Positions 3,547 through 30,500 of a stretch of DNA of 64,000 nt are shown here, in pieces; position 1 is the stretch's first letter, and every line of letters begins with the position of its first letter. The notes below the pieces were generated by a model that was not told the origin of the DNA, ran no database searches, and was given only the letters and a program-made list of their open reading frames with translations. Source of the DNA: Dehalococcoidia bacterium (lineage in GTDB: Bacteria > Chloroflexota > Dehalococcoidia > Lucifugimonadales > JAGWBF01); assembly GCA_965197415.1 (NCBI GenBank), contig OZ240207.1, positions 2,709,853 through 2,773,852 of the forward strand. The letters are read 5' to 3'. The position numbers and the translations under genes are program-made.

Positions 3547-3584
3547 ACGAAAAGAGCCCAGGCCCGTGTTCAAGGGCCTGGGCT
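3547..3584 (-). terminator. rho-independent terminator downstream of the LLM oxidoreductase gene
   Basis: A perfect 11-bp stem, agcccaggccc (3555-3565) pairing with gggcctgggct (3574-3584), has an 8-nt loop. On the minus strand it is followed by tcttttcg. Confidence 0.7.
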
Positions 3585-3612
3585 GATCTTGGTATGGTTA
3601 CGTAGTCGGCGC

Positions 3613-4806: not shown

Positions 4807-4957
4807 GGGGCGGCTCCTACAAAAGAGTGTGGGGTCGGCGCTTTTGCCCAATTGTAGAAACCTGCCTTTTAGGTGTCAACTTGTCGAATTGGGACATAGA
4901 GAACGGCGCCGGTGCGAACACCGGCGCCGTTTGTCTTGCGGGATGCGCTGCAGCGGT

Positions 4958-5389: not shown

Positions 5390-5440
5390 GATGATTGCTC
5401 CTTGGTTGTGAATCTGTTGGGCTGGGCTTAGGGGCCGGGC

Positions 5441-5932
5441 TTACCGTACCCGGCCCGGCATGGAGTCGCTGAACTCCAGGGCGGCCACCCGCACGTTGAT
5501 TTCCTTGGCTATCAGGCCGCATATCTTCAAAACCCTGTCGGCCACGTTCTGCCTGAGATTGGTCACTACGTGGGGGATGCTGACGCCGTAGTAGACCCGT
5601 ATGGTGAGGTCGAGAATCGCTTCCCTCTTTCCGGCCTCCACGGTGACGCCTCTGGCTTGCCTGTTGGCTCCGGAGAACCGTTCGGACAACACCCGCCCTA
5701 TGGAGCTGGTGCCCACGTCGGCCACGCCGTCGACTTCCTTCGCGGCAACGCTTGCCACTGCCGCAATCACCTCGTCGTAAATGTTGGTCGAACCTTCCAC
5801 GGGAATGGAGGTGATTTTGCTGATCTCTTCCATCCTGGGGAGCATTTCGAGGTCTCGGACCGTCAGTTCGCTCATCACGGGCGCCGAGTTTGCCGAGTCT
5901 ACCGTCCGTTGGGTGTCTTGCTGTGCGGTCAT
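5441..5932 (-). CDS. Asp23/Gls24 family protein (second paralogue)
   Basis: The motifs YDEVIAAVASVAAKEVDGVADVG and EINVRVAAL match the Asp23 family. I chose the ATG at 5932 because AGGAGG lies 7 nt upstream, although the ORF extends to 6007. Confidence 0.8.
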   Translation of the reverse strand: MTAQQDTQRTVDSANSAPVMSELTVRDLEMLPRMEEISKITSIPVEGSTNIYDEVIAAVASVAAKEVDGVADVGTSSIGRVLSERFSGANRQARGVTVEAGKREAILDLTIRVYYGVSIPHVVTNLRQNVADRVLKICGLIAKEINVRVAALEFSDSMPGRVR

Positions 5933-6214
5933 GTCAATGCCTCCTATGTGATTTAGTGTTTGTTCAAAGTTGGGATTCGTCATAAACTCACCGCAACCAA
6001 TGAACATTGACCGAAACTGTTGTCAAGGCGAGAAGACGCGGGCCAGCTCCGGTGGGCCCTTCCGGTTCCCAATTGGTTCGAAATATATCGTATCTTGCTT
6101 TTGTTACGTCTGCTAACCTATGTTTATATAATACACCATATTACTATATTTATGCAAGGGCCCCGAACGACCACGCGAAAAGTAGGGTTCTCGATTGTGG
6201 CCGGAAGGAGTTTC

Positions 6215-7192
6215 ATGGGACTTGGGCTGTGCATCGCGGGATGCGGCAAGTACGCATATACCGTCTCAAGGGCCATTCAGGGAATGGAAGAGTTGGACTT
6301 GTTTTACGCATCACGCGACCTGGAACGGGCGCGTTACTATTGCGACCGTTTCCGGGGAAAGGGTTTCTTTGCCAGCTACGAGGATGCGGCGGCGGACCCG
6401 AGAGTGGAGGCCATGTACTTTGTGACTCCCCATCATTTGCACAAGGACCACGCCCTGCTGGCCGTAAGCCGCTCCAAGCATATCCTGATGGAGAAGCCTA
6501 TCGCCCGGACGCTGGAGGAAGCGGAAGCCATGCGCGCCGCCGCCACAGATGCCGGCTTGAAGTTTATGGTGGCGGAGAATGCGCGGTTCATTCCGTCGGT
6601 GAGGAAGTGCAAGGAACTGTTGAACAGCGGGGCCATCGGCCGGCCGAGAATCATCCAGGCGCAAGCAGAGGAGGACCAGCTGGCCGACGACTGGCGGAAC
6701 AGCCTGGAAATGAACGGCGGCGGCGTCCTAATCGACGGAGGCATTCATGTTGTGGACAACCTGGTCCACATGGGAGGAATGCCGTCCAGGGTCTACGCCA
6801 GAATTCTTCCCAGCGTATCCCCTGAAATGGATGGGGAAGACGGTATGGCAGTCATTGTTGACTTCGGGGATGGAGCGACAGGCTTGATTAACTTTTCCAC
6901 CGGCAACACGGTCAGTTCCAGAAAGGCGGAGATCGTCATTACGGGCGTCCAGGGCCGGATCAGCGTCAACATACTCCAGGGGAGGGTCACGTTGGAGGAC
7001 TCGACAGGCGCAACCGAGTTCCAGTTCGACGCGACTGACATGGGCTGGCGGGACATGTTCACCGAGTTCGTCGGCTGCATCCAGGAAGATAGGGAACCCG
7101 GCTTTTCCGTTGAGGATGCGGCCCTCGACTTGAGAGTGGTCCTTGCCGCTTACGAATCAGCGTCCAGGGGGTCGCCGGTGGATCTTGTGTAG
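6215..7192 (+). CDS. Gfo/Idh/MocA family NAD(P)-dependent oxidoreductase
   Basis: The gene has a Rossmann N-terminus (GLCIAGCGKYA) and the family EKP motif (HILMEKPIARTLEEAEAM). The ATG at 6215 is preceded by GGAAGGAG. The upstream part of the ORF (6020-6214) is an AT-rich promoter region. Confidence 0.85.
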   Translation: MGLGLCIAGCGKYAYTVSRAIQGMEELDLFYASRDLERARYYCDRFRGKGFFASYEDAAADPRVEAMYFVTPHHLHKDHALLAVSRSKHILMEKPIARTLEEAEAMRAAATDAGLKFMVAENARFIPSVRKCKELLNSGAIGRPRIIQAQAEEDQLADDWRNSLEMNGGGVLIDGGIHVVDNLVHMGGMPSRVYARILPSVSPEMDGEDGMAVIVDFGDGATGLINFSTGNTVSSRKAEIVITGVQGRISVNILQGRVTLEDSTGATEFQFDATDMGWRDMFTEFVGCIQEDREPGFSVEDAALDLRVVLAAYESASRGSPVDLV

Positions 7193-7294
7193 GAAAATGA
7201 GAGAGAAGGTCGATCACTGACATCAAGGGGTGGCGGAAGGGCCGTTAATGTTCTATATAATAGGCCCGAACAGTGTGGAAAGGCGGGAGGAACG

Positions 7295-8341
7295 ATGACA
7301 ACGGAGCGAGAGAAGTCCCTGGACATCGCCATAGCGCAAATCGAGCGCCAGTACGGCAAAGGCGCCATCATGCGTCTGGGCGCGGGGGCCGACAAGCTGG
7401 CCACCGAGGTGATTTCCACGGGCTGCCTGTCCCTGGACATGGCGTTGGGAGTGGGCGGAATTCCCAAGGGCAGGGTCTCAGAGATATTCGGGACTGAGTC
7501 GGCGGGCAAGTCCACCCTCGCGCTGCACATCATGGCGTCAACCCAGGCAACGGGCGGGACTGCCGCCTACATCGACGTGGAGCACGCCTTGGACCCGTCC
7601 TATGCGGCCAACTGCGGCGTCAAGATTGAAGACCTCCTAATTGCCCAGCCCGACAGCGCCGAGCAGGCCTTGGAGATAACGGAGTACCTGGTGCGGAGCG
7701 GCGCCGTGGACACGGTCATCGTGGACAGCGTGGCGGCTCTGGTGCCCAAGTCGGAGCTGGAAGGGGACATGGGAGACACCCACGTGGGTCTGCAGGCCAG
7801 GCTCATGTCCCAGGCGCTGCGAAAACTGACCGCCGCTATACACCACTCCAAGACGGCGGTGGTGTTCATCAACCAGCTTCGGGAGAAGGTGGGAGTGATT
7901 TACGGCAGCCCCGAGGTGACTCCAGGGGGCAGGGCGTTGAAGTTCTACAGCTCCGTGCGCATAGACCTGAGGCGGGCCGAGTCCATCAAGCAGGGCACAG
8001 AGGTGGTGGGCAGCAGGGTGCGCGCCCGCATCGTGAAGAACAAGGTTGCTCCGCCCTTCAGGACCGTCGAGTTCGACATCATGTTCAACCACGGCATCAG
8101 CAAAATGGGCGACCTGCTGGACCTGGGAGTGACCAAAGACATCGTCAAGAAGGCGGGCGCCTTCTACTCCTTTGGCGAAGTAAAACTGGGTCAGGGTCGC
8201 GAGAACTCCAAAGAGTTTCTTGAGCAGAACCCTGAGGTGGCCGCTCGGATAGAAGCTCTGGTCCGTGGGGACGACAAACCCTTGGACCTCGAACCTGTGA
8301 CGGTCGGCGAGCCGAAGCTGAATGGAGCCGCGAAGCTCTAG
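7295..8341 (+). CDS. recA: recombinase RecA
   Basis: The N-terminus ([22 protein letters not shown]), the Walker A motif (GTESAGKST) and overall collinearity with RecA support the call. Confidence 0.98.
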
Positions 8342-8352
8342 GGGGTTGCAGG

Positions 8353-8898
8353 CTAGCGAACGCGGTTTACGGCTACATATCCCGCCAAGCCGCCGAATAT
8401 CAGCAGGAAAAGCCAGTCGCTGACCGAGTCGGGCTTGGACATCACGATGACTACGATGATGGCCGCCGCCGTGCCGGCGCCGGCTATCATCGCCAAGGTC
8501 TGGCCGCGCTTTCGGTTCGTGGAGCGGCTGACCGCCTCACCTATCACGTAGCCTGCTGCGAAGGACACCAGCCAGGGGAGAAAGGGCACCGCCAGGTTGT
8601 CCAGAATGAACCACCAGAGGAACCCCGTGACTACGCCGGAAATAAGCCCTGCCAATAGGGCCTTCCCGGCGTAAGAGGGTTGCACGTCGTAGGTGGGGAG
8701 AGTGGTGACTCTGGCGCAGTCGGGACAGCGAGCCCCCACGGGGGTGGGTATCATGCATCGGGGGCAGATAGAGGTCGAACACCGCCCGCAGGCAAGCCCG
8801 GTTTCAATGGTGGGATGGCGGGCGCATCGGGCCAGTCCGGCGGCGTCGCCGGCTTCGTGCTCACGCCGGAAGGGTTCGTCGGGCTGATAGTCGGTCAA
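8353..8898 (-). CDS. membrane protein with an N-terminal B-box/zinc-ribbon (function unknown)
   Basis: Paired Cys motifs (CARHP...CGRC...CPRC...CPDC) are followed by 3-4 predicted TM helices. The start overlaps the plsY stop by 4 nt. Confidence 0.6.
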   Translation of the reverse strand: MTDYQPDEPFRREHEAGDAAGLARCARHPTIETGLACGRCSTSICPRCMIPTPVGARCPDCARVTTLPTYDVQPSYAGKALLAGLISGVVTGFLWWFILDNLAVPFLPWLVSFAAGYVIGEAVSRSTNRKRGQTLAMIAGAGTAAAIIVVIVMSKPDSVSDWLFLLIFGGLAGYVAVNRVR

Positions 8899-9593
8899 GG
8901 TTGCTCCTGTCTCCGATCTGACGGGCCGCGCTCCAGCCAGTCCTCTCGCCGGGCCACGTCCCTGTCCCTGAACAACCTGTTGAAATAGACCTCACGCAGA
9001 GGCACTCCCCTGGTCGGAGGGTTCCAGTTGGAGGTCAGGCGCTTCAACGTCACTAACCCCAATAGTCCCACACAGAACCAAGTAACTGCAAGTGGCTCCC
9101 CCAACAAAACGCTCCACACAGGCAACAACAGCAGGGATATGTATACCCATACCCCCGAGCTCCTGGTTATGAACCATCCGCCCAGTCCGATTCCCGAGAA
9201 GAGAATCAGCAACTGACACCATTCGTTGAGCCCCAGGACGAACAACGCCCCCAATGCCACGGCTATGCCTCTTCCCCCGGTGAATTTCAGGTAAAGGGAC
9301 CAATTATTGCCTGCTATGGCGGCCAGGGGCAGCCCGGTCAACAGAATGGACGAACGGTCCAAGTCGAGAACGTACATCCCAATCCATAGGGGAGAGCCGC
9401 CCTTCGCGAACAGCTCGAAGAGGCCCAGGGGAATCAACCAGCGTCCGCCCACGCTCTCGAAGAGGTTGGAGCCGCCGACGTTGCCGCTGCCAAAGCCGCG
9501 GATGTCGATGCCTTTTACAACACGGGCAATGACGTAGGCGGTGGGAACGGAACCTATGAGAAGAGCGTAGACGTAAAGGGCCGCCAGTTCCAC
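8895..9593 (-). CDS. plsY: glycerol-3-phosphate acyltransferase PlsY with a charged C-terminal tail
   Basis: The motifs LIGSVPTAYVIARVVKGIDIRGFGSGNVGGSN and GGRGIAV are typical of PlsY. Confidence 0.85.
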   Translation of the reverse strand: MELAALYVYALLIGSVPTAYVIARVVKGIDIRGFGSGNVGGSNLFESVGGRWLIPLGLFELFAKGGSPLWIGMYVLDLDRSSILLTGLPLAAIAGNNWSLYLKFTGGRGIAVALGALFVLGLNEWCQLLILFSGIGLGGWFITRSSGVWVYISLLLLPVWSVLLGEPLAVTWFCVGLLGLVTLKRLTSNWNPPTRGVPLREVYFNRLFRDRDVARREDWLERGPSDRRQEQP

Positions 9594-9602
9594 GAGGGTC
9601 CT

Positions 9603-10433
9603 CTAGCCCTTCCGGGCGTGTCTCTTGAGCTGTTCCACCGTTTCCGGCGGCGGCCCGCTGGCGCCGGGCAGGTACTCGGTGCGGTCGGGTATGGCGTGGT
9701 AGTCGGTGCCTCCGCAGGGGACCAGGCCGAACCGGTCAGCCACCCTGGCCAGCTCCTCGACTTGCTCGCTGGAGAACTTGGCGTAGTGGACTTCGATCCC
9801 AACCAGCCCGGCGTCCTTCAAGTCTGCGACATAGTTCAGGTAGTCGTCCACGTATATGGGATGGGCCATTACAGGGACGCCACCCCAGGACTTGATCAGG
9901 TCTATGGCGTCGTTTGGACTGAGTTTTGCCCTTTCGGTGTATGCCGGAGAGTTGCGCCCGATGTACCTTTCGAATGCATCATCGGTGTCCCTTACCCAGC
10001 CGCCCTCCACCAGGGCCTGTGCGACGTGAGGGCGTCCTATTGCTGCCTCTCCCGCCAACTCTTGCACCCTTTCCCAGGTGATTCCCATTCCCATCTCCCG
10101 GAGCCTTTCAACCATTCTGCGGCCCCGGTCCTGCCTGCCCCGGCGGAACTGTGTCAGGGTCTCCTGCACCTTCGGGTCCTCGTGAGGAATGTAGTATCCC
10201 AGGATGTGTATCTCGTTGCCCGGGACGTCAGCGCTCAGTTCGATGCCGGGTATGACCGTCAAGTCAGGATGCTTCCGGGCGGCCTCGAAGGCTTCCGGGA
10301 GTCCCTCGGTGGAGTCGTGGTCGGTGATTGCGATGACCTTGAGACCTTGCCCGGCGGCCAGGTCCACCAGTTCAGTGGGCGTAAGGCGCCCGTCGGAGGC
10401 CGTGGTGTGGAGGTGAAGGTCTACAAGAGCCAT
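9603..10433 (-). CDS. PHP-domain metal-dependent phosphoesterase (TrpH/YciV-like)
   Basis: The segment DLHLHTTASDGRLTPTELV...IAITDHDS is the canonical PHP N-terminal motif. Confidence 0.85.
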   Translation of the reverse strand: MALVDLHLHTTASDGRLTPTELVDLAAGQGLKVIAITDHDSTEGLPEAFEAARKHPDLTVIPGIELSADVPGNEIHILGYYIPHEDPKVQETLTQFRRGRQDRGRRMVERLREMGMGITWERVQELAGEAAIGRPHVAQALVEGGWVRDTDDAFERYIGRNSPAYTERAKLSPNDAIDLIKSWGGVPVMAHPIYVDDYLNYVADLKDAGLVGIEVHYAKFSSEQVEELARVADRFGLVPCGGTDYHAIPDRTEYLPGASGPPPETVEQLKRHARKG

Positions 10434-10435
10434 GT

Positions 10436-11206
10436 TTAGGGCAGGACCCGGTCAATGCGCTGAATGTCTGTGGCCCGTCCGTCGGCGTCAAGGTCCACCA
10501 GTACCGAGTTGAACTGTACCGGGCCCTGGGGAACGCTAAAGCGTTTGGGCATCTGGGTCAGGAATCCCTCCAACACCGCCTGCACGTCGGTCCCGATGAC
10601 GGAGTTCTGAGGCCCGACCATCCCTACGTCCGAGATGTACGCCGTGCCTTGGGGGAATATGCGCGGGTCTGCGGTGGGCACGTGGGTATGGGTGCCAAAA
10701 ACTGCGCTGACCCTGCCGTCCAAGTACCAGGCCATGGCTTGCTTCTCTGAAGTTGCCTCCGCGTGAAAGTCCACGAGGATCGCCATCTCGTCGCCGTTGG
10801 AGCCGATTTCCCGCAGAACTTGGTCGGCGGTGCGAAACGGGCAGTCCAGAGGACTCATGAAAACACGGCCCATCAGGTTCACCACCGCCGTGTTGCCCAG
10901 CTTGACGTATCCCCGGCCCGGCACGCCGGGCGGGTAGTTGGCCGGCCTGATGAGCGCAGGTTCTTCATCTATGTAGGGGACCACTTCTTTTTGCTTCCAG
11001 ATGTGGTTTCCGGATGTAATTACGTCGACTCCCGCCGCCAGCAGGTCGTGGGCCGTCTCTGGCGTTACTCCGAATCCGCCGGCGCTGTTCTCCCCGTTGG
11101 CGACCACCATGTCGACGTCGTATTCTTGCCGTAGACCGGGCAGGACGCTCTGGACCGCTTTCCGGCCCGGTTTGCCAACCACATCGCCTATCATCAATAT
11201 CCGCAA
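10436..11206 (-). CDS. ymdB: YmdB-family metallophosphoesterase (2',3'-cyclic-nucleotide 2'-phosphodiesterase)
   Basis: The motifs MRILMIGDVVGKPGR and GENSAGGFG support the call, as does the conserved position directly downstream of rny. Confidence 0.85.
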   Translation of the reverse strand: MRILMIGDVVGKPGRKAVQSVLPGLRQEYDVDMVVANGENSAGGFGVTPETAHDLLAAGVDVITSGNHIWKQKEVVPYIDEEPALIRPANYPPGVPGRGYVKLGNTAVVNLMGRVFMSPLDCPFRTADQVLREIGSNGDEMAILVDFHAEATSEKQAMAWYLDGRVSAVFGTHTHVPTADPRIFPQGTAYISDVGMVGPQNSVIGTDVQAVLEGFLTQMPKRFSVPQGPVQFNSVLVDLDADGRATDIQRIDRVLP

Positions 11207-21104: not shown

Positions 21105-21384
21105 GACTGAACCTCCCTGGACTAAAGATGCGCGGCGAATGGTAGAAGCAGGGACATCATAGACCAAGCAGGCATAATTTGCCACCGGCTCCGGCTCGAA
21201 CCGTTGCCACTGACGGGCAGCCATGAGGAAGATGACCCTCTGGACAAGGTCAACCACAAGCGACTTGCCCTTTGAACGTCTAGTCCACCAAAACAGGCGC
21301 CATCGCTCGGATTAAGTTGGACAAGACGACGGGAAGTTGATATGGTAGAAACGGCTATTGTACTTCTACCCTCAAGGAGACCAA

Positions 21385-21642
21385 GTGAGCCTCAACATCA
21401 AGAACGAAGAGACGTGCCGGCTGGCCAGCGAGTTGGCTCAACTTACCGGCGAGACTATGACAGGCGCTATCACGGTCGCGCTCAAGGAGCGTCTGGAGCG
21501 CGAGAAACGTGAGCGCAGCGTCGAGACTCGTCTCCAAAAGATGCGGGCCATCTCAGAGCGAGTCGCCAAGTCGTTACGGGACGGCCCGTCTGCTGTCGAG
21601 CATGGTGACTTCCTCTATGACGAGCGTGGTCTTCCCAAGTGA
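21385..21642 (+). CDS. vapB: type II antitoxin VapB (Rv0623/PSK-like family)
   Basis: SLNIKNEETCRLASELAQLTGETMTGAITVALKERLERE is typical of this antitoxin family. The GTG at 21385 follows AAGGAGA. The stop overlaps the vapC start (GTGA). Confidence 0.85.
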   Translation: MSLNIKNEETCRLASELAQLTGETMTGAITVALKERLEREKRERSVETRLQKMRAISERVAKSLRDGPSAVEHGDFLYDERGLPK

Positions 21643-22025
21643 TTGTCGACACGTCAGCCGTCCTGGCAGTCCTGTTTAGAGAGTCGGACGCCGAGCGTTA
21701 TGACACAGCGATAGCAGAAGCTTCACGTTGCGGTATGTCGATGGCGAACCTCCTGGAGACCGCCATCGTCGTCGAAAGCCGCAGCGGCGGCGCGGCCGGA
21801 AATGAGCTTGATGCCTTCCTGGATGAAGCGGGGATTGAGTTGGAGCCAGTCACACTTGACCATGTGCGGGCTGCTCGCCGAGCTTGGAGGCGGTTTGGCA
21901 AGGGCAACCACCCGGCGGGGCTGAACTTCGGCGATTGCTTTGCCTACGCCCTGGCGGAAGTTTCCGGCGAGCCGCTTCTGTTCAAAGGCGGCGACTTCGA
22001 GCTTACCGACATCGAGGCCGCCTAA
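21639..22025 (+). CDS. vapC: PIN-domain toxin VapC
   Basis: The motifs IVDTSAVLAV, FGDCFAYALA and LLFKGGDF supply the PIN acidic residues. The gene is 128 aa and coupled to vapB. Confidence 0.9.
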   Translation: MIVDTSAVLAVLFRESDAERYDTAIAEASRCGMSMANLLETAIVVESRSGGAAGNELDAFLDEAGIELEPVTLDHVRAARRAWRRFGKGNHPAGLNFGDCFAYALAEVSGEPLLFKGGDFELTDIEAA

Positions 22026-23397: not shown

Positions 23398-24117
23398 TTA
23401 CGACGCCTCTTCCATCAGGATGCGCAGGTCGTTGACCACGTCGGCTGGGTCGAGGAAGAGGTTGTTAAACAACACACGCCTGACGCCCCAAGCGTCTATC
23501 AGGAAAATGGGCGCGGTATGGCCCACCAGATAACCTGAGTCCGACGCGTCCACCGTCTTCTCGTCCAGCGTATGTTGGTACCCTTCTGGGTGCTCATGAG
23601 GGCCGTACCGGTAGACTGTATCCCCGTCCGTGTTCTTGCCTGGGTCGGAGTCGACCTCCGTAACCACCGGAGCCAGCCAGTACTGGCTCCAGATGGGGCT
23701 CAGCTCCTCCTCGGCGCCTATCAAGTATTGCCACCGCCCTTCCATGCCCATGTATCGGGTGTATTCTCGCACTTGCTCCATGGTGTCACCCCTGGGGTCT
23801 ACCGATATGGTCAGGAAGTTGACCCTATCGACCTCTTCGGGAGCGAGCATCATATGGGCCTGCTGGAGGTTGGCCGTGACCAGGGGACAAACGTCAGGGC
23901 AGTTGGTATAGAGGAATGTCAGCAGGACCACCTCGCCCCGGAAGTCCAATAGAGACACGGACTCTCCGGTGTGGTCTATCAGCGTGAACTCTGGCGCCTG
24001 TTCCGGGTTGAGTTCTGTTCCCAGGAACGCTGATGAGGAAGCGCCGGAGCAGGCTCCTGCAGCCAAGAAAACCAGAGCCGTAAGCGCTACGGCTCTAAAT
24101 AAGGCGCCGAAATCCAT
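23398..24117 (-). CDS. SCO1/SenC-family copper chaperone (thioredoxin fold), lipoprotein-like N-terminus
   Basis: The CxxxC motif appears in LLTFLYTNCPDVCPLV. The protein has a signal/lipobox-like LAAGAC and lies next to the cytochrome oxidase cluster. Confidence 0.85.
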   Translation of the reverse strand: MDFGALFRAVALTALVFLAAGACSGASSSAFLGTELNPEQAPEFTLIDHTGESVSLLDFRGEVVLLTFLYTNCPDVCPLVTANLQQAHMMLAPEEVDRVNFLTISVDPRGDTMEQVREYTRYMGMEGRWQYLIGAEEELSPIWSQYWLAPVVTEVDSDPGKNTDGDTVYRYGPHEHPEGYQHTLDEKTVDASDSGYLVGHTAPIFLIDAWGVRRVLFNNLFLDPADVVNDLRILMEEAS

Positions 24118-24127: not shown

Positions 24128-24589
24128 CTAGCGTCTGGAAACCGCCAAAAGGGCCGCCACGGACGGGATTCCCAGGACGAGGCCCATTCCTATGATGATG
24201 GCTCCCCAGACCCCGGCTCCTGTCTCATTCAACACTATGAATATGATCCCTATGCCGCCTCCCCACCCGATTATGACTAAAGCGGCCAATATGGGTAGGA
24301 CCATTGCTAGAGACGGCCGTTTTAGAGCGGGCGACAGGAGGTCGGCGATTTCCGACATCTGTCTTTGCACAGCTTCGAACGGGGGAAGGAGTATATCCAG
24401 AATTGGTCGGTGGATCGCCGCCAGCAATGGGATTCCCACAACCAGGGCCATGCCGACAATGATGGCTCCCCAGACCCCGGCTCCGGTCTCATTCAAGACT
24501 ATGAATATGACCCCTATGCCGCCTCCCCATATGATTACGACTATAGCTGCCAACAGAGGCAGGGCCATTGCCAACGGCGTTCGTTGCAT
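24128..24589 (-). CDS. membrane protein consisting of an internal tandem duplication (function unknown)
   Basis: Two units of about 55 aa are nearly identical: IIWGGGIGVIFIVLNETGAGVWGAIIVGMALVVGIP and IGWGGGIGIIFIVLNETGAGVWGAIIIGMGLVLGIP. The DNA period is about 267 bp. Confidence 0.6.
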   Translation of the reverse strand: MQRTPLAMALPLLAAIVVIIWGGGIGVIFIVLNETGAGVWGAIIVGMALVVGIPLLAAIHRPILDILLPPFEAVQRQMSEIADLLSPALKRPSLAMVLPILAALVIIGWGGGIGIIFIVLNETGAGVWGAIIIGMGLVLGIPSVAALLAVSRR

Positions 24590-24716
24590 TGCTCTCTTCT
24601 ACACTCCCCTACGGGTTTCTAAGCTATGAATTCGGCGTCCAAAAGATACCACATACGGCATTATGTTTCCACAGCGCCAGCTAGGAAACAGCGCCTGTGT
24701 TCATGGCCCCCCACCG

Positions 24717-24766
24717 GTGACGGTGGGGCGGTTGGAGGCGTTCTCCTGGTTGGCCCATATCAGGAA
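24717..24766. repeat. left copy of an exact 50-nt direct repeat (relic of the ctaG 3' end)
   Basis: The sequence gtgacggtggggcggttggaggcgttctcctggttggcccatatcaggaa is identical to 26485-26534. On the minus strand it would read ...FLIWANQENASNRPTVTGGGP*. Confidence 0.9.
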
Positions 24767-24810
24767 GACGACGGAGGAACTAGTCTGCGGGAGTACGTCA
24801 TAGATGTCGA

Positions 24811-26256
24811 TCATCGTCCCGCAGAAGCCTGAGGCTGTAGCAGATTCAAGACAAGGGCAGACGCGTAGTCCTTACTATTCTCTCTTTTGACTTTGATATT
24901 TACCTGAACAAGCTTTTTGCACGGTGTGGTGAGGTTTTCGGCGTGAACGACACACGCAATTGCTCCCGAAACCTCATCCCCACGACCGTCAACACAAATT
25001 TCAACATCAAAAAAATGGTCGCCCGTTCCATGCCGCCACTGTTCGCATTCCAGGCTATACGACTCGACCGGCCCAGTCGGTCGAGTCGGTTTGTAGTAGA
25101 AGCCGTTAGGGTCGCGCCGATGGGTTGTAGGCGGAACAATATCAGCTGAACGAGGAGTCAGAATAGGGGAACGGGATATACCTTCGTTGAAACCTATGAG
25201 ACTCGACTTCTGTCTCCCACGTGGTCTGAGTGGAGGCCTAGGAAGGAGTAAATTACCTTCCTGGTCGTCCTCTGACTGGGGGTAAACCCTGAATCCTCCT
25301 TTCCCCGAGATGTCCACCAACGTGCCGCTTCCTGGGCGAGTTCCTTCGTTAGCAATTGCAAACCGGAGGAAGGGTCTACTTGACTGTTGCAAAGCTAGAT
25401 GCAAACCTGACAACTTCGCTTGGCAATCTCTTCTCCAATCCACTAAGTGACGATTGTATTCATCAATATCCCCGCGGGATGGAGGTACACGCTCTTCTTT
25501 TCTCCAGGGTGGTTGATTGTTGTGCTTGACATGAAGTTTTGCTGCGTCCACTTCATCGATCGGTGGGAACCCATCCCTTAACTTTCGAAGGAGTTCTCTG
25601 ACTTCATCATCGGTCAATGGGCTATAAACTCCGCACTCGACCTCGATCGATTCTATTTCCTTACCTTGTTCGTCGATACACCTGATCTGGAATAGAGGGT
25701 CAGCTTTCTTAAGCCGCTCAAGCTCGTTTTGAAGGCGCGCAACCTCTCGTTCTTTCGTGGTGCTTTCAGGTGGTAGCAGCCATTCATCTTTGACAGGAGT
25801 AAACGAGAGACTGATGCTCTTCGCCGTCATCATAAGGCCAGTATCATGGGTGAGTAGCTGTACAGACGAACTCTCTTGTTCTTCTCTATATCTGTAACAG
25901 CATCCCGCGATTTCATCATCTAGCTTGCTGTAATCAAGACGGTCCTTCAAATCTTGACTGGGCAGATTAGTCGGATCAATGTAGAGTCGTACGTGCGGCG
26001 CTGATTCTCGAACAAGATGATATCCCTCGTTACTGGAAACGATACTCTGAAAAATAGAATTAGCCTTACGTGCGCGTCGCCCTACTCGGTCGTTTCCCCT
26101 GGATTTCTGATTGTCTATCTCCCTTTGAACTGGACGACATACGATTAAATGGATTTCCTCGAAATCTCCGCAATCTGACCAATCAATTTCCTCTAACGGT
26201 CGGCATTGAATAAACAAGTTAGTATCAGGGAATAGGTAAAGGACGCGATTGGTCAT
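24811..26256 (-). CDS. PIN-like (DUF4935-type) nuclease-domain protein with a coiled-coil and a large uncharacterised C-terminal region
   Basis: The N-terminus shows LFPDTNLFIQC...VCRPVQREIDN...DDEIAGCC...LLTHDTGLMMTAK, which is the PIN acidic-residue pattern. A coiled coil (KEREVARLQNELERLKK) follows. I recognise no motif in the C-terminal 250 aa. The ATG has a GAGGTGG RBS. Confidence 0.6.
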   Translation of the reverse strand: MTNRVLYLFPDTNLFIQCRPLEEIDWSDCGDFEEIHLIVCRPVQREIDNQKSRGNDRVGRRARKANSIFQSIVSSNEGYHLVRESAPHVRLYIDPTNLPSQDLKDRLDYSKLDDEIAGCCYRYREEQESSSVQLLTHDTGLMMTAKSISLSFTPVKDEWLLPPESTTKEREVARLQNELERLKKADPLFQIRCIDEQGKEIESIEVECGVYSPLTDDEVRELLRKLRDGFPPIDEVDAAKLHVKHNNQPPWRKEERVPPSRGDIDEYNRHLVDWRRDCQAKLSGLHLALQQSSRPFLRFAIANEGTRPGSGTLVDISGKGGFRVYPQSEDDQEGNLLLPRPPLRPRGRQKSSLIGFNEGISRSPILTPRSADIVPPTTHRRDPNGFYYKPTRPTGPVESYSLECEQWRHGTGDHFFDVEICVDGRGDEVSGAIACVVHAENLTTPCKKLVQVNIKVKRENSKDYASALVLNLLQPQASAGR

Positions 26257-26468
26257 TCTTCCACCTCTTGAGCATGTTGCCGGACATCAACCTCACCCCC
26301 ACGCCAACTACGGCAGCCAAGCGTCTTGATGGACGGAGTGTGTGCGGGATTCTTCCACACGGTACCGGCGCCTATCCAACAACTTAGAGGGTCACTCGTT
26401 GACCTGGCCTACTCTCCATTCTACCAGTTACAACTTGGGACGATAGCCCATCACTAGTGGACAGTGGA

Positions 26469-27293
26469 TTATCGGTCTGAACCCGTGACGGTGGGGCGGT
26501 TGGAGGCGTTCTCCTGGTTGGCCCATATCAGGAAAATAACGGCGAGGGCGCCAACAAAGAAGAGGCCGCCGGGCACCCACATGATGATGCCGCCTATCTG
26601 CTGGTCAGACACCACCGAAGTGCCCCATATCCTTGGAGCCTCGGCGTACCATTCGTATATCCCGGCATCGCTGAAAGTAATCAGCGCTCCAAGGATGGTA
26701 GGAATCGTGGGCTGGGCTACTAGGTAGACCATCTGGACCAGGTAAGAAGGCCGGGGAAGCTCCCTCATCCGGCTCATGATGGGCCACCAGAGAAGGATGC
26801 CTCCTCCTATAAATAGGATATGCTCCAGTATGTGTATTCCTCTGTCCCTCAGAGCCCCGTCGTACAGAGCGGGTACGTGCCACAGGACAAATATGAAATT
26901 GAAGATGAGGAAGGCGGGAATCGGCCTTGTGATGAACCGCAGCGCTGGCAGTACCCTCCGACCATTGACCAGCGGGCGGATCAGCCAAGGCGGGGCGCCG
27001 GCCAGCAAGAACGGCGGCGAAACCAGGGTCAACAGCAGGTGCTGGACCATGTGTGCCGAGAAGAGGTACTTGTCTCCCAGCTCGTGGATAGGCGACAGCA
27101 GGGCCACGAAGAGGACCAGGACCCCAGTGAGAAACAGGGCCACTTCCCCCGAGCCGAGGGCTTCGGACCCTTGAAAGCGTTTCCTAAGCGGTCCCACGCC
27201 CAGAAGGTAGAGAGCCGTGAATGTCAGGAGGCCTATGACAACGCTGGGATGGGCGTGCCATTCCGTCCAGGAGAATTGGACCTCAGCGGGCAA
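26469..27293 (-). CDS. ctaG: cytochrome c oxidase assembly factor CtaG (caa3-type, membrane)
   Basis: The motifs HMVQHLLLTLVSPPFLLAG and FVLWHVPALYD are typical of Caa3_CtaG. The gene sits within the cox cluster. Confidence 0.8.
   Translation of the reverse strand: MPAEVQFSWTEWHAHPSVVIGLLTFTALYLLGVGPLRKRFQGSEALGSGEVALFLTGVLVLFVALLSPIHELGDKYLFSAHMVQHLLLTLVSPPFLLAGAPPWLIRPLVNGRRVLPALRFITRPIPAFLIFNFIFVLWHVPALYDGALRDRGIHILEHILFIGGGILLWWPIMSRMRELPRPSYLVQMVYLVAQPTIPTILGALITFSDAGIYEWYAEAPRIWGTSVVSDQQIGGIIMWVPGGLFFVGALAVIFLIWANQENASNRPTVTGSDR
26485..26534. repeat. right copy of the exact 50-nt direct repeat (functional 3' end of ctaG)
   Basis: This copy is identical to 24717-24766 and encodes ...FLIWANQENASNRPTVTG of the CtaG-like protein. 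Confidence 0.9.
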
Positions 27294-27359: not shown

Positions 27360-27803
27360 CTAGGTGCGGGTGGAGAAGGGGCCGGTCCAACGTAGGTCGC
27401 CCAGGTCAATGGAGGCGGAAGCAAGGCCATTCGGCTCTTCTCTGATGATGGAACCGTGGCCTCCTCCTGCATCCGGCGGATTGGCTTTGGACGAAAGCAC
27501 CTGGAATAAGGCCAGCAACGCTACGGTGATGACCAAAGCGAGCAGCGCACCGCCGATGAAGACGGTCGAGAAGAGGCGATGGTCGAACTTAAGGTGCATG
27601 TAGAACAGTATCACGAGGGCGAACTTGGCTATAGACAGGATGAGGAATATGGGCAGGAAGGCAGGTTCCAGCACGTCGATGTAAAACACACCGACCTCGA
27701 TGCCGGTGAGCACCGCCAGAAGAAAGGCGATCTTGATATAGGTGGCAGGTGTGGGGTGCTCCCCGTGCCCTGCCTGCTGATTCGCGTTAGGATTGTGAGC
27801 CAT
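27360..27803 (-). CDS. cytochrome c oxidase subunit IV (small prokaryotic subunit) with a C-terminal extension
   Basis: The segment YIKIAFLLAVLTGIEVGVFY...AKFALVILFYMHLKFD is typical of the CoxIV/CyoD-like family. Confidence 0.8.
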   Translation of the reverse strand: MAHNPNANQQAGHGEHPTPATYIKIAFLLAVLTGIEVGVFYIDVLEPAFLPIFLILSIAKFALVILFYMHLKFDHRLFSTVFIGGALLALVITVALLALFQVLSSKANPPDAGGGHGSIIREEPNGLASASIDLGDLRWTGPFSTRT

Positions 27804-27822: not shown

Positions 27823-28545
27823 CTAAGTTACCCCGACTCCGATTAGATAGACCACCGCGAAGATGACAATCCAGACGATGTCAACAAAGTGCCAGTACAG
27901 GGCTGCCAGGTCCACACTCAGCGCCTGCCTGTCGGTCAGTTCCCGCTGGGCTTTCTTCCCTCCCCACAGGGAGTATCCCAAGATCGACAGTAGCCATATC
28001 ACGCCAACCGTCACGTGGGCCCCGTGGAACCCGGTCAATGTGAAGAAGGTCGTGCCGAACAGGTTGGTCTTTGGGGTCAGTCCGTATTGCGCCTCGTATT
28101 CTGCCTCCCCGTGCATGCAGGCCTCATCCGGGTGCACAGGAATCTTGTCGGTCTGCACGGGGCACTCGACGACCTGATGGTGGTTGGCGAATTCGTAGAA
28201 CTCGAAGGTCTGGAAGGCAAGGAAAGTCGCTCCCAACAGAGCGGTCGAAAGGAGCCAAACCCGGAAGGCCCTCATGTCGCCCCGGTTGATGGAGGCGTAG
28301 GCCAGCACCATGGACATGCTGGACATCAGCAGGACGAAGGTGCTCACAGAAGTGGTGGGTATGTCGAACACGTCTATGGGGTAAGGCCCCACTATGCTCT
28401 GGCCCCTGTATATCAGATAGGTGGCTATCAGGCTGCCGAAGAACAAGCAGTCGGAGCCCAGGAAGAGCCACATGAGCATCTTCCTGTGGTTTAGCCCGGT
28501 GGTAGTGTCTTCCACCACCGCGTGGTGTCCGTGCTGTTCCTGCAA
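27823..28545 (-). CDS. ctaE: cytochrome c oxidase subunit III
   Basis: The heme-copper oxidase subunit III pattern is present (FFGSLIATY...TGFHGAHVTVG...YWHFVDIVW). Confidence 0.9.
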   Translation of the reverse strand: MQEQHGHHAVVEDTTTGLNHRKMLMWLFLGSDCLFFGSLIATYLIYRGQSIVGPYPIDVFDIPTTSVSTFVLLMSSMSMVLAYASINRGDMRAFRVWLLSTALLGATFLAFQTFEFYEFANHHQVVECPVQTDKIPVHPDEACMHGEAEYEAQYGLTPKTNLFGTTFFTLTGFHGAHVTVGVIWLLSILGYSLWGGKKAQRELTDRQALSVDLAALYWHFVDIVWIVIFAVVYLIGVGVT

Positions 28546-28574: not shown

Positions 28575-30500
28575 CTACTCGTCGGGTTCTTCCGGCTCCG
28601 ATGCCGGTTCGAAAGACCAGGCGTACACGGCCACCATGGCCATGAACATACCAATCGCGCCCAAGGCCCAGGTTGTAGCCTCTTGAAAGATGGCGCCGTA
28701 GGCCGCGACGGTCATGCCTCCGGCTACCATGAAAGGCCAGTAGGAGAGGCCCGGCATGTGAATCCCGTGGCCTCCACCGTGTGCGTCACCGTGTCCTTCG
28801 GAATGATGGTCGTGGTCGTCCGCCTCGGAGGAACCTCCCGCCACAGGCTCGGGACCTTCCCGGTGTTCTCCGGACCCGTACTTTTCTTCCCAGAAGGCGT
28901 CGCGGGAATGCACCGTGGGAATCTCTGCGAAGTTGTAGTGGGGCGGCGGCGAGGATATGGACCATTCCAGGGTCCTGGCATCCCAGGGGTCGTTGGGCGC
29001 CTTCTCGCCCTTCCTCAAGCTGCGGAACGCGTTGTGAATGAAGATTAAGGTGGAGGACGCCATCAGAAATGCGCCGACGGTGGCCAGCAGGTTCAGGTTG
29101 TCCCATCCCATGCCCTCGGCGTAGGTGTATATGCGCCGTGGCATTCCGTCCAACCCCAGATTGTGCATTGGGAAGAAGGTCACGTTCATTCCCAGGAGCA
29201 TCACCCAGAAATGGAGCTTGCCCAGACCTTCGCTAAGCATCGTGCCCGTGAACTTGGGCCACCAATAGTAGATTCCGCCGAACAGGGCCCAAATGGCGCC
29301 GCCAAAGAGCACGTAGTGGATGTGGGCCACTACGAAGTAGGTGTCCTGCTGCTGATTGTCCGATGGAGCGGAGGAGTGCATGATGCCGCTCAGTCCGCCC
29401 ACGATGAACAGAATAATGAACCCTATAGCGAATAGCATGGGCGTGGTGAACTTGATTTGGCCTCCCCACATGGTGGCAATCCAGTTGAAGATTTTCACGC
29501 CTGTGGGAATGGCGATGATCATGGTGCTAATAGCAAAGGCGGCGGAGGCGTAAGGCCCCAGCCCCACCGTGAACATGTGGTGGCTCCAGACGCCCCATCC
29601 CAGGAATCCGATGATCACGCCCGAAAGCACCACCACGGGATAGCCGAAGAGGGGCTTACGGGAGAACGTTGGGATGATTTCCGTCACTATCCCCATAGCG
29701 GGCAGGATGAGTATATAGACCTCAGGATGTCCGAACACCCAGAAAATATGCTGCCAGAGGATCGGGTCTCCGTTGGCCACGGGATCGAAGAAGTTGAACC
29801 CGAAGTTGCGGTCCATGTAGAGCTCTATCAGCCCCACGGTGATGACCGGCATGGCCAGCATGATGAGCAGAGAGGTAACCAGGGTCATCCACACGAACAC
29901 GGGCATGCGCATCAGGCTCATTCCGGGCGCCCGCATGTTTACGATGGTCACTATAAAGTTGAACGCCGCTATCATCGAGGCGGTTCCAAGCGTTCCAAGC
30001 CCCACGGTGTAGAAGTCCATGCTGTCGCCCAGGGTGTACGGCTCCTCGGTGAGGTTGGCGTAAGCGAACCATCCGGTGTCCGGCGAAATGCCGCCCGCAA
30101 GCCAGCCTGAATTCAGAACGATGCCGCCGCCAAGGAACAACCAGTAGGACAACGCGTTCATCCTTGGAAACGCTACGTCCCTGGCCCCGATCATCAGGGG
30201 TATCATGTAGTTGAAGAAGGCTGCGCCCATCGGCATGATGGCCAGGAATATCATGCTCAGCGCGTGCATTGTGAACAGCTGGCTGAAAATCTCCGGGCTG
30301 ACAAGGTCCTGCTCCGGCCCGGACAATTGGACTCGCATGATCAGGGCTTCGATACCGGCCAGCAGGAAGAATATGAAGGCCGTCACCCCGTAGAGGATTC
30401 CTATCCTCTTGTGGTCAACAGTGGTTATCCAGCCCCATACTCCCTCGTAGGAGGTGGGTCTCTTTAGAGCGCCGCTTATGGTTTCAGTCAGGGTCACCAT
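28575..30500 (-). CDS. ctaD: cytochrome c oxidase subunit I with a His-rich linker and two extra C-terminal TM helices
   Basis: Canonical subunit I motifs are present (WFFGHPEVYILILP-like: FWVFGHPEVYILILPAMG; HHMFTVG; VAHIHYV). Confidence 0.97.
   Translation of the reverse strand: MVTLTETISGALKRPTSYEGVWGWITTVDHKRIGILYGVTAFIFFLLAGIEALIMRVQLSGPEQDLVSPEIFSQLFTMHALSMIFLAIMPMGAAFFNYMIPLMIGARDVAFPRMNALSYWLFLGGGIVLNSGWLAGGISPDTGWFAYANLTEEPYTLGDSMDFYTVGLGTLGTASMIAAFNFIVTIVNMRAPGMSLMRMPVFVWMTLVTSLLIMLAMPVITVGLIELYMDRNFGFNFFDPVANGDPILWQHIFWVFGHPEVYILILPAMGIVTEIIPTFSRKPLFGYPVVVLSGVIIGFLGWGVWSHHMFTVGLGPYASAAFAISTMIIAIPTGVKIFNWIATMWGGQIKFTTPMLFAIGFIILFIVGGLSGIMHSSAPSDNQQQDTYFVVAHIHYVLFGGAIWALFGGIYYWWPKFTGTMLSEGLGKLHFWVMLLGMNVTFFPMHNLGLDGMPRRIYTYAEGMGWDNLNLLATVGAFLMASSTLIFIHNAFRSLRKGEKAPNDPWDARTLEWSISSPPPHYNFAEIPTVHSRDAFWEEKYGSGEHREGPEPVAGGSSEADDHDHHSEGHGDAHGGGHGIHMPGLSYWPFMVAGGMTVAAYGAIFQEATTWALGAIGMFMAMVAVYAWSFEPASEPEEPDE

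What the first reader, a model, noticed from the sequence alone, without database searches (positions are those of the whole stretch)
24590..26540. A 1.7 kb low-GC insertion bracketed by an exact 50-nt duplication of the ctaG 3' end, with no recombinase
The 50-mer gtgacggtggggcggttggaggcgttctcctggttggcccatatcaggaa occurs at 24717-24766 and 26485-26534, and imperfect similarity continues for about 15 nt beyond it.

The right copy is the real coding 3' end of the CtaG-like gene (...IFLIWANQENASNRPTVTGSDR*). The left copy is an orphan relic that would read ...VVFLIWANQENASNRPTVTGGGP* on the minus strand.

The DNA between the copies is clearly AT-richer. My hand counts give 42-47% GC on internal 60-nt lines, against about 63% in ctaG. 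It contains a single gene.

This geometry is the classic footprint of site-specific integration into the 3' end of a gene, with att duplication. However, there is no integrase, transposase or tRNA.

The insertion separates ctaG from the duplicated membrane protein and sco, in an otherwise contiguous respiratory cluster.
Basis: seen in the sequence. Interest (0 to 1): 0.8.

Follow-up and report, generated by a model that had tools for sequence, protein, structure and literature searches.

The report
Recombinase-less defence-gene islet in ctaG end
A 1.7-kb foreign DNA piece carrying one probable defence ribonuclease sits in the tail of a respiratory gene of a Dehalococcoidia bacterium, bounded by a duplicated gene end, and comparison with relatives shows it was gained or lost at exactly this spot at least three times although it encodes no enzyme to move itself.

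Summary
The exact 50-mer occurs only at 24717-24766 and 26485-26534, and the similarity extends to 62 nt at 94%. The 1,718 bp between the copies are the lowest-GC stretch of the window (49.7% vs 59.1%; GC3 0.46 vs 0.61-0.86). They hold one gene, a 481-aa PIN_4 ribonuclease.

Eleven related Dehalococcoidia loci gave 3 occupied sites, 7 empty sites with one copy of the repeat, and 1 site with a different insert (DNA methyltransferase plus HNH). The "orphan" left copy plus its tail is the ancestral ctaG end. The present ctaG tail (GSDR*) came in with the insert.

Each occupied genome is sister to an empty one, and similarity breaks inside the repeat. This needs at least 3 gains or at least 6 losses by recombination within a ctaG-end segment of 87 nt or less. 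The three islands are mosaic, and parts are more alike across clades than the core genomes are.

No integrase or transposase was found in the 64 kb, in any relative, or in the fold of the cargo protein.

Verdict: a non-autonomous, att-bounded single-gene islet, like a cis-mobilizable element, probably carrying a defence RNase. The recombining enzyme is unresolved: a recombinase acting in trans, or RecA. It is a new member of a known kind and of moderate interest.

The parts
26469..27293 (-). ctaG (caa3 cytochrome oxidase assembly factor), the target gene. Its last 5 codons plus stop (26469-26484) are supplied by the insert.
   Evidence: Pfam Caa3_CtaG E 8.7e-61. Junction alignment with empty sites.
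26481..26542 (-). Repeat copy A (attL-like); exact core 26485-26534. Native ctaG sequence on its upstream side, insert DNA on its downstream side.
26257..26484 (-). Left end of the insert: the imported ctaG tail (G-S-D-R-stop) plus a 212-nt non-coding leader. No similarity to the native intergenic region.
   Evidence: z about 0 against the native intergenic region. Highly divergent among the three island alleles (53-56% in 26484-26390).
24811..26256 (-). Cargo gene: 481-aa protein with an N-terminal PIN_4 (SMG6-like) ribonuclease domain, a helical/beta middle part and a C-terminal beta-sandwich. Mosaic allele.
   Evidence: Pfam PIN_4 E 5.7e-14. AF2 pLDDT 83.7. Foldseek hits to SMG6/EST1A PIN domains and Ig-like sandwiches. 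Acidic catalytic residues conserved. Mosaic structure.
24767..24810 (-). Right end of the insert, between the PIN_4 stop codon and repeat copy B.
24713..24774 (-). Repeat copy B (attR-like); exact core 24717-24766. This is the displaced ancestral ctaG 3' end.
24701..24716 (-). Ancestral ctaG tail (…G-G-G-P-stop), now orphaned. It continues into the native intergenic region upstream of the 153-aa gene.
   Evidence: Same tail type (GGGP*, a few nucleotide differences) as empty-site alleles L003, L085 and L086, and 13 of 15 CtaG cluster members carry the native tail type.
24701..24814 (-). 37-codon ORF whose ATG overlaps the PIN_4 stop codon (ATGA) and which reads through copy B in the CtaG frame. 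Probably fortuitous.
   Evidence: Intact in the window and in L001. Frame-shifted, and with a premature stop in the tail, in L002.
24128..24589 (-). Clade-specific 153-aa membrane protein with an internal duplication; the native downstream neighbour of ctaG.
23398..24117 (-). SCO1/SenC copper chaperone, the last gene of the respiratory cluster.

Best explanation
The 1,718-bp segment is a non-autonomous integrated cassette, an islet comparable to a cis-mobilizable element. It carries its own copy of the last ~26 codons of ctaG (up to 87 nt in relatives).

A single crossover between that copy and the chromosomal ctaG end put the cassette into the gene. The cassette's mimic now finishes ctaG (tail GSDR*). 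The original end was pushed 1.7 kb downstream as the 'orphan' copy, which created the direct repeat. The reverse crossover between the two copies deletes the cassette and restores an intact empty site.

The cassette encodes no recombinase, so the enzyme must act in trans. It could be a site-specific recombinase of another element, or host RecA acting on the 50-87-nt homology. I cannot tell which.

The cassette has been gained or lost at this one spot at least three times in this Dehalococcoidia group, and its alleles recombine with each other across lineages.

Its single gene is a PIN_4 ribonuclease that is most likely an anti-phage defence or toxin-type effector.

Shown: the geometry, the empty sites, breakpoints inside the repeat, the patchy distribution, the mosaicism, the absence of a recombinase, and the PIN fold.
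Inferred: the direction of events (gain versus loss), the enzyme, a circular intermediate, and the defence role.
For: (1) Exact repeat and foreign composition.
(2) Seven empty sites have one repeat copy. Their ctaG tail and downstream DNA match the window's copy B, and the tail after copy A is foreign.
(3) The insert-borne tails of L001 and L002 encode G[SA]D[AS]ET, like the native tail of another clade (RGADSET*) and unlike the clade-1 native GGGP*. So the cassette brought its own ctaG end, and the repeat is not a target-site duplication.
(4) The flank phylogeny pairs every occupied genome with an empty sister: W+L085 (bootstrap 98), L002+L003 (100), L001+L005 (100).
(5) In all three sister pairs identity stays 93-100% up to the repeat on both sides and collapses inside it.
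(6) Island segment 26134-25700 is 92.6% identical between W and L001, whose flanks are 83-85% identical, but only 56.8% between W and L002, whose flanks are 91-97% identical.
(7) There is no integrase or transposase in the 64 kb or in any of the 11 loci. The cargo folds as a PIN domain plus a beta-sandwich, not as a recombinase.
(8) Host recA is present.
(9) Relatives of the cargo are nested in type I R-M operons next to a ThsB-like TIR gene, or sit among toxin-antitoxin and transposase genes.
(10) Another relative has a methyltransferase plus HNH insert at the same point.
(11) Precedent: CIMEs (PMC5704250) and integrase-less ssrA islands in Dehalococcoides (PMC3146451).
Against: No cognate integrase-bearing element using this site was found in 11 loci. 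No viral contig carries the core sequence.

No circular junction or excision product was observed. The occupied and empty alleles from the same sample (L002 and L086) belong to different strains.

Both repeat copies carry the host clade's own sequence variants. A fixed-point site-specific recombinase does not predict this without extra gene conversion.

Only about 30 genomes of this clade exist in public data, so the counts of gains and losses rest on a small tree, and core genes also recombine between clades (L087 sco).

The defence role rests on gene neighbourhood only. There are no PADLOC, NCBIfam or PHROG matches.
Confidence: 0.55

Rival explanations
1. One ancient insertion, then vertical descent. 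The island entered once before the clades split. It has since only been lost, by precise deletion between the two repeat copies, in at least 6 lineages. Ordinary homologous recombination between strains shuffled its alleles, and gene conversion keeps the two copies alike. Under this view it is a decaying fixed relic and not a mobile unit.
For: Deletion between 50-87-nt direct repeats is easy and gives a perfect empty site. Both copies carry host-clade-specific variants, as expected from in-situ gene conversion. The left boundary of ctaG homology is the same in all three islands, which points to a single origin. The core genes of these lineages also recombine (L087 sco groups with the other clade).
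Against: It needs at least 6 independent losses, against 3 gains. W and L002 belong to the same clade yet differ by about 44% in the insert's left end and in PIN segment 2, while parts of the island are closer across clades than the core genomes are. So whole or partial island alleles have moved horizontally. After long residence, GC3 would be expected to have shifted toward the host's 0.7-0.8, yet it is still 0.46-0.48 in all three.
Confidence: 0.25
2. Import by flanking homology. Occupied alleles spread between strains as linear DNA, by double crossover in ctaG on one side and in the 153-aa/sco genes on the other. On this reading the repeat is only a scar of the original insertion and plays no part in movement.
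For: Flanks within clade 1 are 92-97% identical, so crossover end points there would be nearly invisible. Mosaicism inside PIN_4 shows that homologous recombination acts on this locus.
Against: In three independent sister pairs the flanks remain sister-like right up to the repeat on both sides, with no adjacent donor tract. Across clades the flanks are clade-specific up to the repeat, while island segments are shared.
Confidence: 0.1
3. Self-mobilisation. The PIN_4 protein itself is the nuclease or recombinase that inserts its own gene, making this a new kind of homing or transposing element.
For: It is the only gene in the insert, and PIN-like folds include some DNA nucleases (PMC5499597).
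Against: About 45 of 48 testable loci of the same protein family in other organisms have no flanking direct repeat above the control level. The only strong exception is a REP/MITE-like dispersed repeat. Many family members sit inside type I R-M operons. The fold matches the SMG6-type RNA endonucleases. Homing would not create a duplication and would co-convert the flanks, and no such tracts are seen.
Confidence: 0.03
4. The left copy is kept because it is functional. Either it is translated as a 37-aa peptide that mimics the CtaG C-terminus, translationally coupled to PIN_4, or it acts as a regulatory sequence for the downstream genes.
For: An ATG overlapping the PIN_4 stop codon (ATGA) opens a frame through copy B in the CtaG frame in both the window and L001.
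Against: In L002 the frame is shifted and the tail carries a premature TGA. The sequence is simply the native ctaG end, identical in type to the empty sites. There is no Rfam hit and no promoter signal above chance.
Confidence: 0.04

Closest known systems
Cis-mobilizable elements (CIMEs) of streptococci, derived from ICEs/IMEs integrated in the 3' end of protein-coding or tRNA genes (definition in PMC5704250)
   Same: Bounded by attL/attR-type direct repeats, one of which is the 3' end of the target gene. Encodes no integration or transfer genes. Can in principle be excised or moved only by an enzyme supplied in trans.
   Different: CIMEs are recognisable remnants of a known ICE or IME, and a cognate integrase-bearing element uses the same site. 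Here no cognate element is known, the unit is a single 1.7-kb gene cassette, and the host is a Dehalococcoidia bacterium.
Dehalococcoides ssrA genomic islands, including the 15 islands without an integration module (PMC3146451)
   Same: Same bacterial class. Low-GC islands bounded by the target gene's 3' end and a direct repeat of it. Polymorphic between strains. Some lack the integrase and were proposed to be CIMEs.
   Different: Those islands target the tmRNA gene, have a 20-bp repeat, use a serine recombinase (DsiB) found in sister islands, occur in tandem arrays and carry reductive dehalogenase cargo. Here the target is the protein-coding ctaG, the repeat is 50-87 nt and includes the stop codon, there is a single islet, and no recombinase is known.
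Defence-gene hotspots between conserved core genes (my own knowledge of the defence-island literature; not tested against a specific paper)
   Same: A fixed chromosomal position that holds different defence-type cargo in related genomes: PIN_4 RNase in W, L001 and L002, and methyltransferase plus HNH in L006. Alleles are hypervariable and mosaic.
   Different: Most described hotspots hold multi-gene islands with integrases or transposases, or have no defined boundaries. Here the PIN_4 cassette has precise repeat boundaries inside a gene's coding end.
PrrC/RloC-type latent RNases embedded in type I R-M loci (my own knowledge; comparison of the cargo only)
   Same: Relatives of the cargo lie between hsdS and hsdR of type I R-M operons, the position PrrC occupies. 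The predicted activity is an RNA nuclease.
   Different: There is no sequence or fold relation to PrrC: this is a PIN domain, not an ABC-ATPase plus anticodon-nuclease domain. In the window the gene stands alone with no R-M partner.
Integron gene cassettes
   Same: A single gene, no recombinase inside the unit, inserted by a trans-acting enzyme.
   Different: There is no attC-like imperfect palindrome at the cassette end, and no attI or IntI nearby. The boundaries are a duplicated host gene end.

Membership tests
Integrative genomic island at a gene 3' end | Direct repeats at both ends, one being the 3' end of the target gene | tested here: met
   Exact 50-nt core, 62 nt at 94%. The same arrangement occurs in L001 (87 nt, 90%) and L002 (59 nt, 97%).
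Integrative genomic island at a gene 3' end | Related genomes with an empty site carrying a single copy of the repeat | tested here: met
   L003, L004, L005, L085, L086, L087 and L088.
Integrative genomic island at a gene 3' end | The element supplies a substitute 3' end that keeps the target gene intact | tested here: met
   The tail after copy A differs from the native tail and completes the ORF: GSDR* in the window, KGSDAET* and GADSETGSHR* in relatives.
Integrative genomic island at a gene 3' end | Encodes its own integrase (tyrosine or serine recombinase) | tested here: not met
   The only gene is a PIN_4 protein. Its fold is not that of a recombinase. None was found in the 64 kb.
Integrative genomic island at a gene 3' end | Excision to a circular form with an attP junction | not testable with these tools
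   This needs read-level data from the source metagenomes.
Cis-mobilizable element (CIME) | Retains attL and attR but lacks integration and transfer genes | tested here: met
   (structural criterion only).
Cis-mobilizable element (CIME) | Derived from, and mobilised by, a cognate ICE/IME whose integrase uses the same att site | tested here: inconclusive
   No integrase-bearing occupant was found in 11 loci of the clade. No viral contig carries the core sequence. The sample is small, and the full genomes were not searchable.
Transposon / IS / MITE | Terminal inverted repeats and a short target-site duplication of native sequence | tested here: not met
   No terminal inverted repeats. The duplication is 50-87 nt, and the copy-A tail is foreign rather than a duplicate of the native tail. 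No transposase is present.
Integron cassette | attC recombination site at the cassette end, with attI/IntI nearby | tested here: not met
   No palindromic attC-like element at either end. No integrase in the window.
Free-standing homing endonuclease gene | DNA endonuclease cargo, no duplication, and co-conversion of flanking markers | tested here: not met
   The cargo has an RNase-type PIN fold. A duplication is present. The flanks are sister-like up to the repeat.
PIN_4 (PF13638) ribonuclease family (cargo protein) | Profile match above the curated threshold | tested here: met
   53 bits against a cut-off of 21.9, E 5.7e-14, residues 11-150.
PIN_4 (PF13638) ribonuclease family (cargo protein) | PIN fold with a conserved acidic active site | tested here: met
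   The model matches the SMG6/EST1A PIN domains 2hww and 2dok. D11 is nearly invariant, and E46, D113/D114 and D138 are invariant in 27 relatives.
Known anti-phage defence systems (PADLOC-DB 2.0) | Match to a model of a described defence protein | tested here: not met
   No PADLOC hit at E up to 1. The defence role rests on gene neighbourhood only.

The most novel reading that the evidence does not exclude
The cassette is a recombinase-free mobile unit. Its ~60-87-nt mimic of the ctaG end serves as a homology arm. A circularised single-gene cassette, made by recombination between the two repeat copies, is taken up by a related cell and integrates by a RecA-dependent single (Campbell-type) crossover. 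Repeated cycles make the mimic match each host clade. This would be a minimal way for defence genes to hop between related genomes, needing no integrase and keeping the target gene intact.
Probability: 0.2. Interest if true: 0.65.

Novelty: new member of a known kind. Interest (0 to 1): 0.38.

Why it matters
The locus gives a clean natural example, with occupied and empty sister genomes, of how a single accessory (probably defence) gene is slotted into the coding end of an essential-pathway gene without damaging it, and without carrying its own integrase.

It extends the 'gene-3'-end island' theme, known for the tmRNA gene in Dehalococcoides, to a protein-coding respiratory gene in uncultured aerobic Dehalococcoidia.

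It flags a large, uncharacterised, full-length-conserved PIN_4 protein family (at least 664 relatives) that recurs inside type I R-M operons as a candidate new defence effector.

If the RecA-only route were shown, it would matter for how defence genes spread in streamlined genomes that have few mobile-element enzymes.

Tried and rejected
(1) Flanking repeats as a property of the PIN_4 family. I tested 48 metagenome loci with a reverse-orientation control, and all but one group scored at background. The exception (L011/L012/L046) is a REP/MITE-like palindromic dispersed repeat, not a gene-end duplication, and has no tRNA.

(2) The L006 methyltransferase/HNH insert as the same element with swapped cargo. 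Homology stops at the ctaG tail, so it is an independent insertion.

(3) The insert leader as a diverged copy of the native intergenic region, which would indicate a larger duplication. It is not significant (z about 0).

(4) Phage origin. There is no match to the core sequence or to the protein in IMG/VR, and no PHROG match.

(5) A structured RNA or strong promoter/terminator in the island. There is no Rfam hit, and promoter hits are at chance level.

(6) A recombinase elsewhere in the window. None was found; only host RecA is present.

(7) A solved-structure relative by sequence. None was found.

(8) A 9-bp inverted repeat in the core as a recombinase site. It is perfect only in clade 2 and 6-8/9 elsewhere, against a background of one per 3-9 kb, so I kept it only as a weak lead.

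(9) A search for an integrase-bearing occupant through CtaG and 153-aa-protein homologues. The clade is small in public data (one 28-member CtaG cluster, 8 clusters of the 153-aa protein), and none was found.
Full report
OBSERVATION. The 50-mer GTGACGGTGGGGCGGTTGGAGGCGTTCTCCTGGTTGGCCCATATCAGGAA is present exactly twice in the 64-kb window, at 24717-24766 and 26485-26534. It has no further copy at up to 3 mismatches, and none is expected by chance. Ungapped similarity extends to 62 nt at 94%.

All genes here lie on the minus strand:
- ctaD 28575-30500
- ctaE 27823-28545
- ctaF 27360-27803
- ctaG 26469-27293 (Pfam Caa3_CtaG)
- a 481-aa ORF 24811-26256
- a 153-aa internally duplicated membrane protein 24128-24589
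- SCO1/SenC 23398-24117

The DNA between the repeat cores (24767-26484) is 49.7% GC, against 59.1% for the rest of the window. It is the lowest-GC stretch of its size in the window. GC3 of the ORF is 0.46, whereas almost every other gene is at 0.61-0.86. The window has no tRNA. Pfam scans of about 55 genes found no integrase or transposase, only host RecA at 7295-8341.

RELATIVES AND EMPTY SITES. The organism is an uncultured Dehalococcoidia bacterium. I collected eleven loci of this clade.
- Three are occupied by the same kind of insert: the window, L001 and L002. Each has ctaG, PIN_4 gene, 153-aa gene, sco, and each carries the flanking ctaG-end repeat (87 nt at 90% in L001, 59 nt at 97% in L002).
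- Seven are empty: L003, L004, L005, L085, L086, L087 and L088. There ctaG is followed directly by the 153-aa gene, with a single copy of the repeat.
- L006 has a different insert just after the ctaG stop codon: an N6/N4 DNA methyltransferase plus an HNH nuclease, with no long repeat. It shares no homology with the PIN_4 insert beyond the ctaG tail.

Of 15 listed members of the CtaG 90% cluster, 13 carry the native tail type GGGP/GGGR.

WHICH COPY IS WHICH. Aligning empty and occupied junctions shows that the window's left ("orphan") copy, its tail (...TVTGGGP*) and the DNA downstream match the ctaG end of the empty-site alleles of the same clade (same GGGP* tail, about 90% nucleotide identity downstream). 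The sequence after the right copy (GGGTTCAGACCGATAA..., giving GSDR*) has no counterpart in empty sites.

So the left copy is the ancestral ctaG end, and the present ctaG tail was imported with the insert. In L001 and L002 the imported tails read KGSDAET* and GADSETGSHR*. These resemble the native tail of another clade (RGADSET* in L005), not the native GGGP* of the window's clade.

The insert therefore carried its own mimic of the ctaG end, so the repeat is not a target-site duplication of local sequence. Beyond the repeat, the insert's leader shows no similarity to the native intergenic region. Homology to the locus is thus confined to 87 nt or less.

GAIN/LOSS PATTERN. Flanking core genes define three groups, about 85% identical between groups:
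- clade 1 (W, L002, L003, L004, L085-L088), 92-97% identical within the clade
- clade 2 (L001, L005), about 93.5%
- L006

In a neighbour-joining tree of the flanks, each occupied genome is sister to an empty one: W+L085 (bootstrap 98), L002+L003 (100) and L001+L005 (100). That requires at least three gains or at least six losses.

In all three sister pairs nucleotide identity stays at 93-100% right up to the repeat on both sides and collapses inside it. There are no donor-type tracts in the adjacent core genes. Whatever the direction of events, the recombination took place within the ctaG-end segment itself, three separate times.

THE ISLAND IS MOSAIC AND HORIZONTALLY EXCHANGED.
- W and L002 have flanks 91-97% identical, but their PIN_4 genes are only 72% identical in nucleotides and 62% in amino acids.
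- Segment 26134-25700 is 92.6% identical between W and L001 (flanks 83-85%) but 56.8% between W and L002.
- Segment 25699-25110 groups L001 with L002 (84%) against W (66-68%).
- The leader plus the first 40 codons group W with L002 (91%).
- GC3 is 0.46-0.48 in all three alleles.

These patterns cannot come from vertical descent alone. Island alleles, or parts of them, move between lineages and recombine.

Both repeat copies in a genome also carry that clade's own variants (GAGAAC/CGCCCC in clade 1, GAAGAC/CGCTCC in clade 2). This points to homology-dependent homogenisation, either by gene conversion or by crossovers at variable points.

THE CARGO. The 481-aa protein matches Pfam PIN_4 (E 5.7e-14, residues 11-150). 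It has no PADLOC, NCBIfam or PHROG match.

It belongs to a large family conserved over its full length: at least 664 relatives at 40-50% identity. D11 is nearly invariant, and E46, D113/D114 and D138 are invariant.

The AlphaFold model (mean pLDDT 83.7) has three parts: an N-terminal PIN domain, a helical/beta middle region and a C-terminal beta-sandwich. The PIN domain is closest to the human SMG6/EST1A RNA endonucleases. The beta-sandwich resembles Ig-like domains. Nothing in the model resembles a recombinase or transposase. Matelska et al. place PIN_4 among VapC-like RNases (PMC5499597).

In distant genomes the gene is nested in type I R-M operons. The order is hsdM-hsdS-PIN_4-ThsB-like TIR-8xMP-hsdR in L089-L092, and hsdS-PIN_4-hsdR in L016 and L018. 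Elsewhere it lies among toxin-antitoxin and transposase genes. I infer a defence or toxin-type RNase. This rests on association only.

IS THE PROTEIN THE MOBILISING ENZYME? I tested 48 loci of the family from unrelated metagenomes for a direct repeat bracketing the gene, with a reverse-orientation control. All but one group scored at background. The exception is a REP/MITE-like dispersed palindrome. No relative and no copy of the core sequence occurs in IMG/VR. The repeat bracket therefore belongs to this ctaG locus and not to the protein family.

MECHANISM. The best-supported reading is a non-autonomous cassette that integrates and excises by a single crossover within its ctaG-end mimic. Structurally this is a cis-mobilizable element: attL and attR are kept, and there are no integration or transfer genes (definition in PMC5704250). 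The closest precedent in the same class is the set of Dehalococcoides ssrA islands. Those are bounded by a 20-bp repeat of the tmRNA gene end, and 15 of them lack the serine-recombinase module (PMC3146451).

The enzyme is unresolved. For a trans-acting site-specific recombinase: the same left boundary of homology in all three alleles, and a 9-bp inverted repeat in the core that is perfect only in clade 2 (weak). For RecA: recA is present, the core variants match the host, identity tracts differ in length between genomes, homologous recombination is pervasive at the locus, and no cognate integrase was found in any of the 11 loci.

Rivals:
- A single ancient insertion followed only by repeat-mediated losses and allele shuffling (about 0.25).
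- Import through flanking homology (about 0.1, weakened).
- Self-mobilisation by the PIN protein (about 0.03).
- A functional role for the orphan copy as a small ORF (about 0.04). The frame is intact in W and L001 but broken in L002.

NOVELTY AND VERDICT. Integrase-less, att-bounded islets and defence hotspots are known kinds. What is new is this instance: a ctaG-targeting, single-gene, 1.7-kb cassette in aerobic Dehalococcoidia. It comes with three occupied/empty sister pairs, mosaic alleles, and a second independent defence-like insertion at the same point.

I rate it a new member of a known kind, with interest about 0.38. The most novel reading still open is a recombinase-free cassette that uses its gene-end mimic as a homology arm for RecA-dependent Campbell integration (probability about 0.2, interest about 0.65 if true).

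Noticed in passing
L006:6810-8500 (CBDEGP010000002.1): At the same point, just after the ctaG stop codon, this relative carries an unrelated ~1.7-kb insert. It encodes an N6/N4 DNA methyltransferase (6948-8078) and a 98-aa HNH nuclease (8154-8450), with no long flanking repeat. The downstream membrane gene is reduced to one 65-aa repeat unit.
   Followed up: yes
window 24811-26256 vs L001/L002 8001-9440: The PIN_4 gene is a three-way mosaic. Successive blocks group W with L002, then W with L001, then L001 with L002. Non-matching blocks fall to 40-60% nucleotide identity.
   Followed up: yes
L089-L092 (about 1400-11000), L016, L018: Distant members of the same PIN_4 family are nested between hsdS and hsdR of type I restriction-modification operons. 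They often sit next to a ThsB-like TIR gene and an 8xMP membrane protein. This family is a candidate uncharacterised defence module.
   Followed up: partly
window 24701-24814 (minus strand): A 37-codon ORF starts at an ATG overlapping the PIN_4 stop codon (ATGA). It reads through the orphan repeat in the CtaG frame: MIDIYDVLPQTSSSVVFLIWANQENASNRPTVTGGGP*. L001 has an equivalent called gene. In L002 the frame is shifted and the tail has a premature stop.
   Followed up: partly
window 25060-25088 (inside the PIN_4 ORF): A perfect 11-13-bp GC-rich hairpin lies in the coding region. L001 keeps a 7-bp stem at the same place through two compensatory double changes that also alter the amino acids. 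The stem is weaker in L002.
   Followed up: partly
window 26497-26526 and 24729-24758; L001 7727-7756; L005 about 5491-5520: An inverted repeat GTCTTCCTG-N12-CAGGAAGAC lies inside the repeat core. It is perfect (9/9) in clade 2 (L001 copy A, empty L005) and 6-8/9 in the other genomes. It could be a recombinase half-site pair or chance in coding sequence.
   Followed up: partly
window 60257-62410 (minus strand): A NgoMIV-type restriction endonuclease (GC3 0.53) and an adjacent N6/N4 methyltransferase (GC3 0.61). This is a second compositionally atypical, defence-type pair in the window.
   Followed up: no
window 21358-22025 (plus strand) and the same position in L001, L085: A VapB-like (PSK_trans_fac) plus VapC PIN toxin-antitoxin pair next to infC. 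The region is variable in relatives. L001 keeps only the antitoxin gene. L085 has two extra ORFs and a DDE transposase beside it.
   Followed up: no
window 24153-24321 / 24417-24585: The 153-aa membrane protein is an internal tandem duplication (169 nt, 81%, spacing 264). Relatives carry 65-aa (L006) and 121-aa (L087) versions. The protein has no Pfam family and only 8 clusters in the protein database.
   Followed up: partly
L087:5171-5905: The sco gene of this clade-1 genome groups with clade 2 (bootstrap 89), while its cta genes group with clade 1. This shows that core genes at this locus also recombine between clades.
   Followed up: no
L011:3366-3790 and 5716-6112: The PIN_4 homologue in this soil metagenome contig is surrounded by several families of short palindromic dispersed repeats (REP/MITE-like), including a 106-nt direct pair and a 31-nt inverted pair.
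   Followed up: partly
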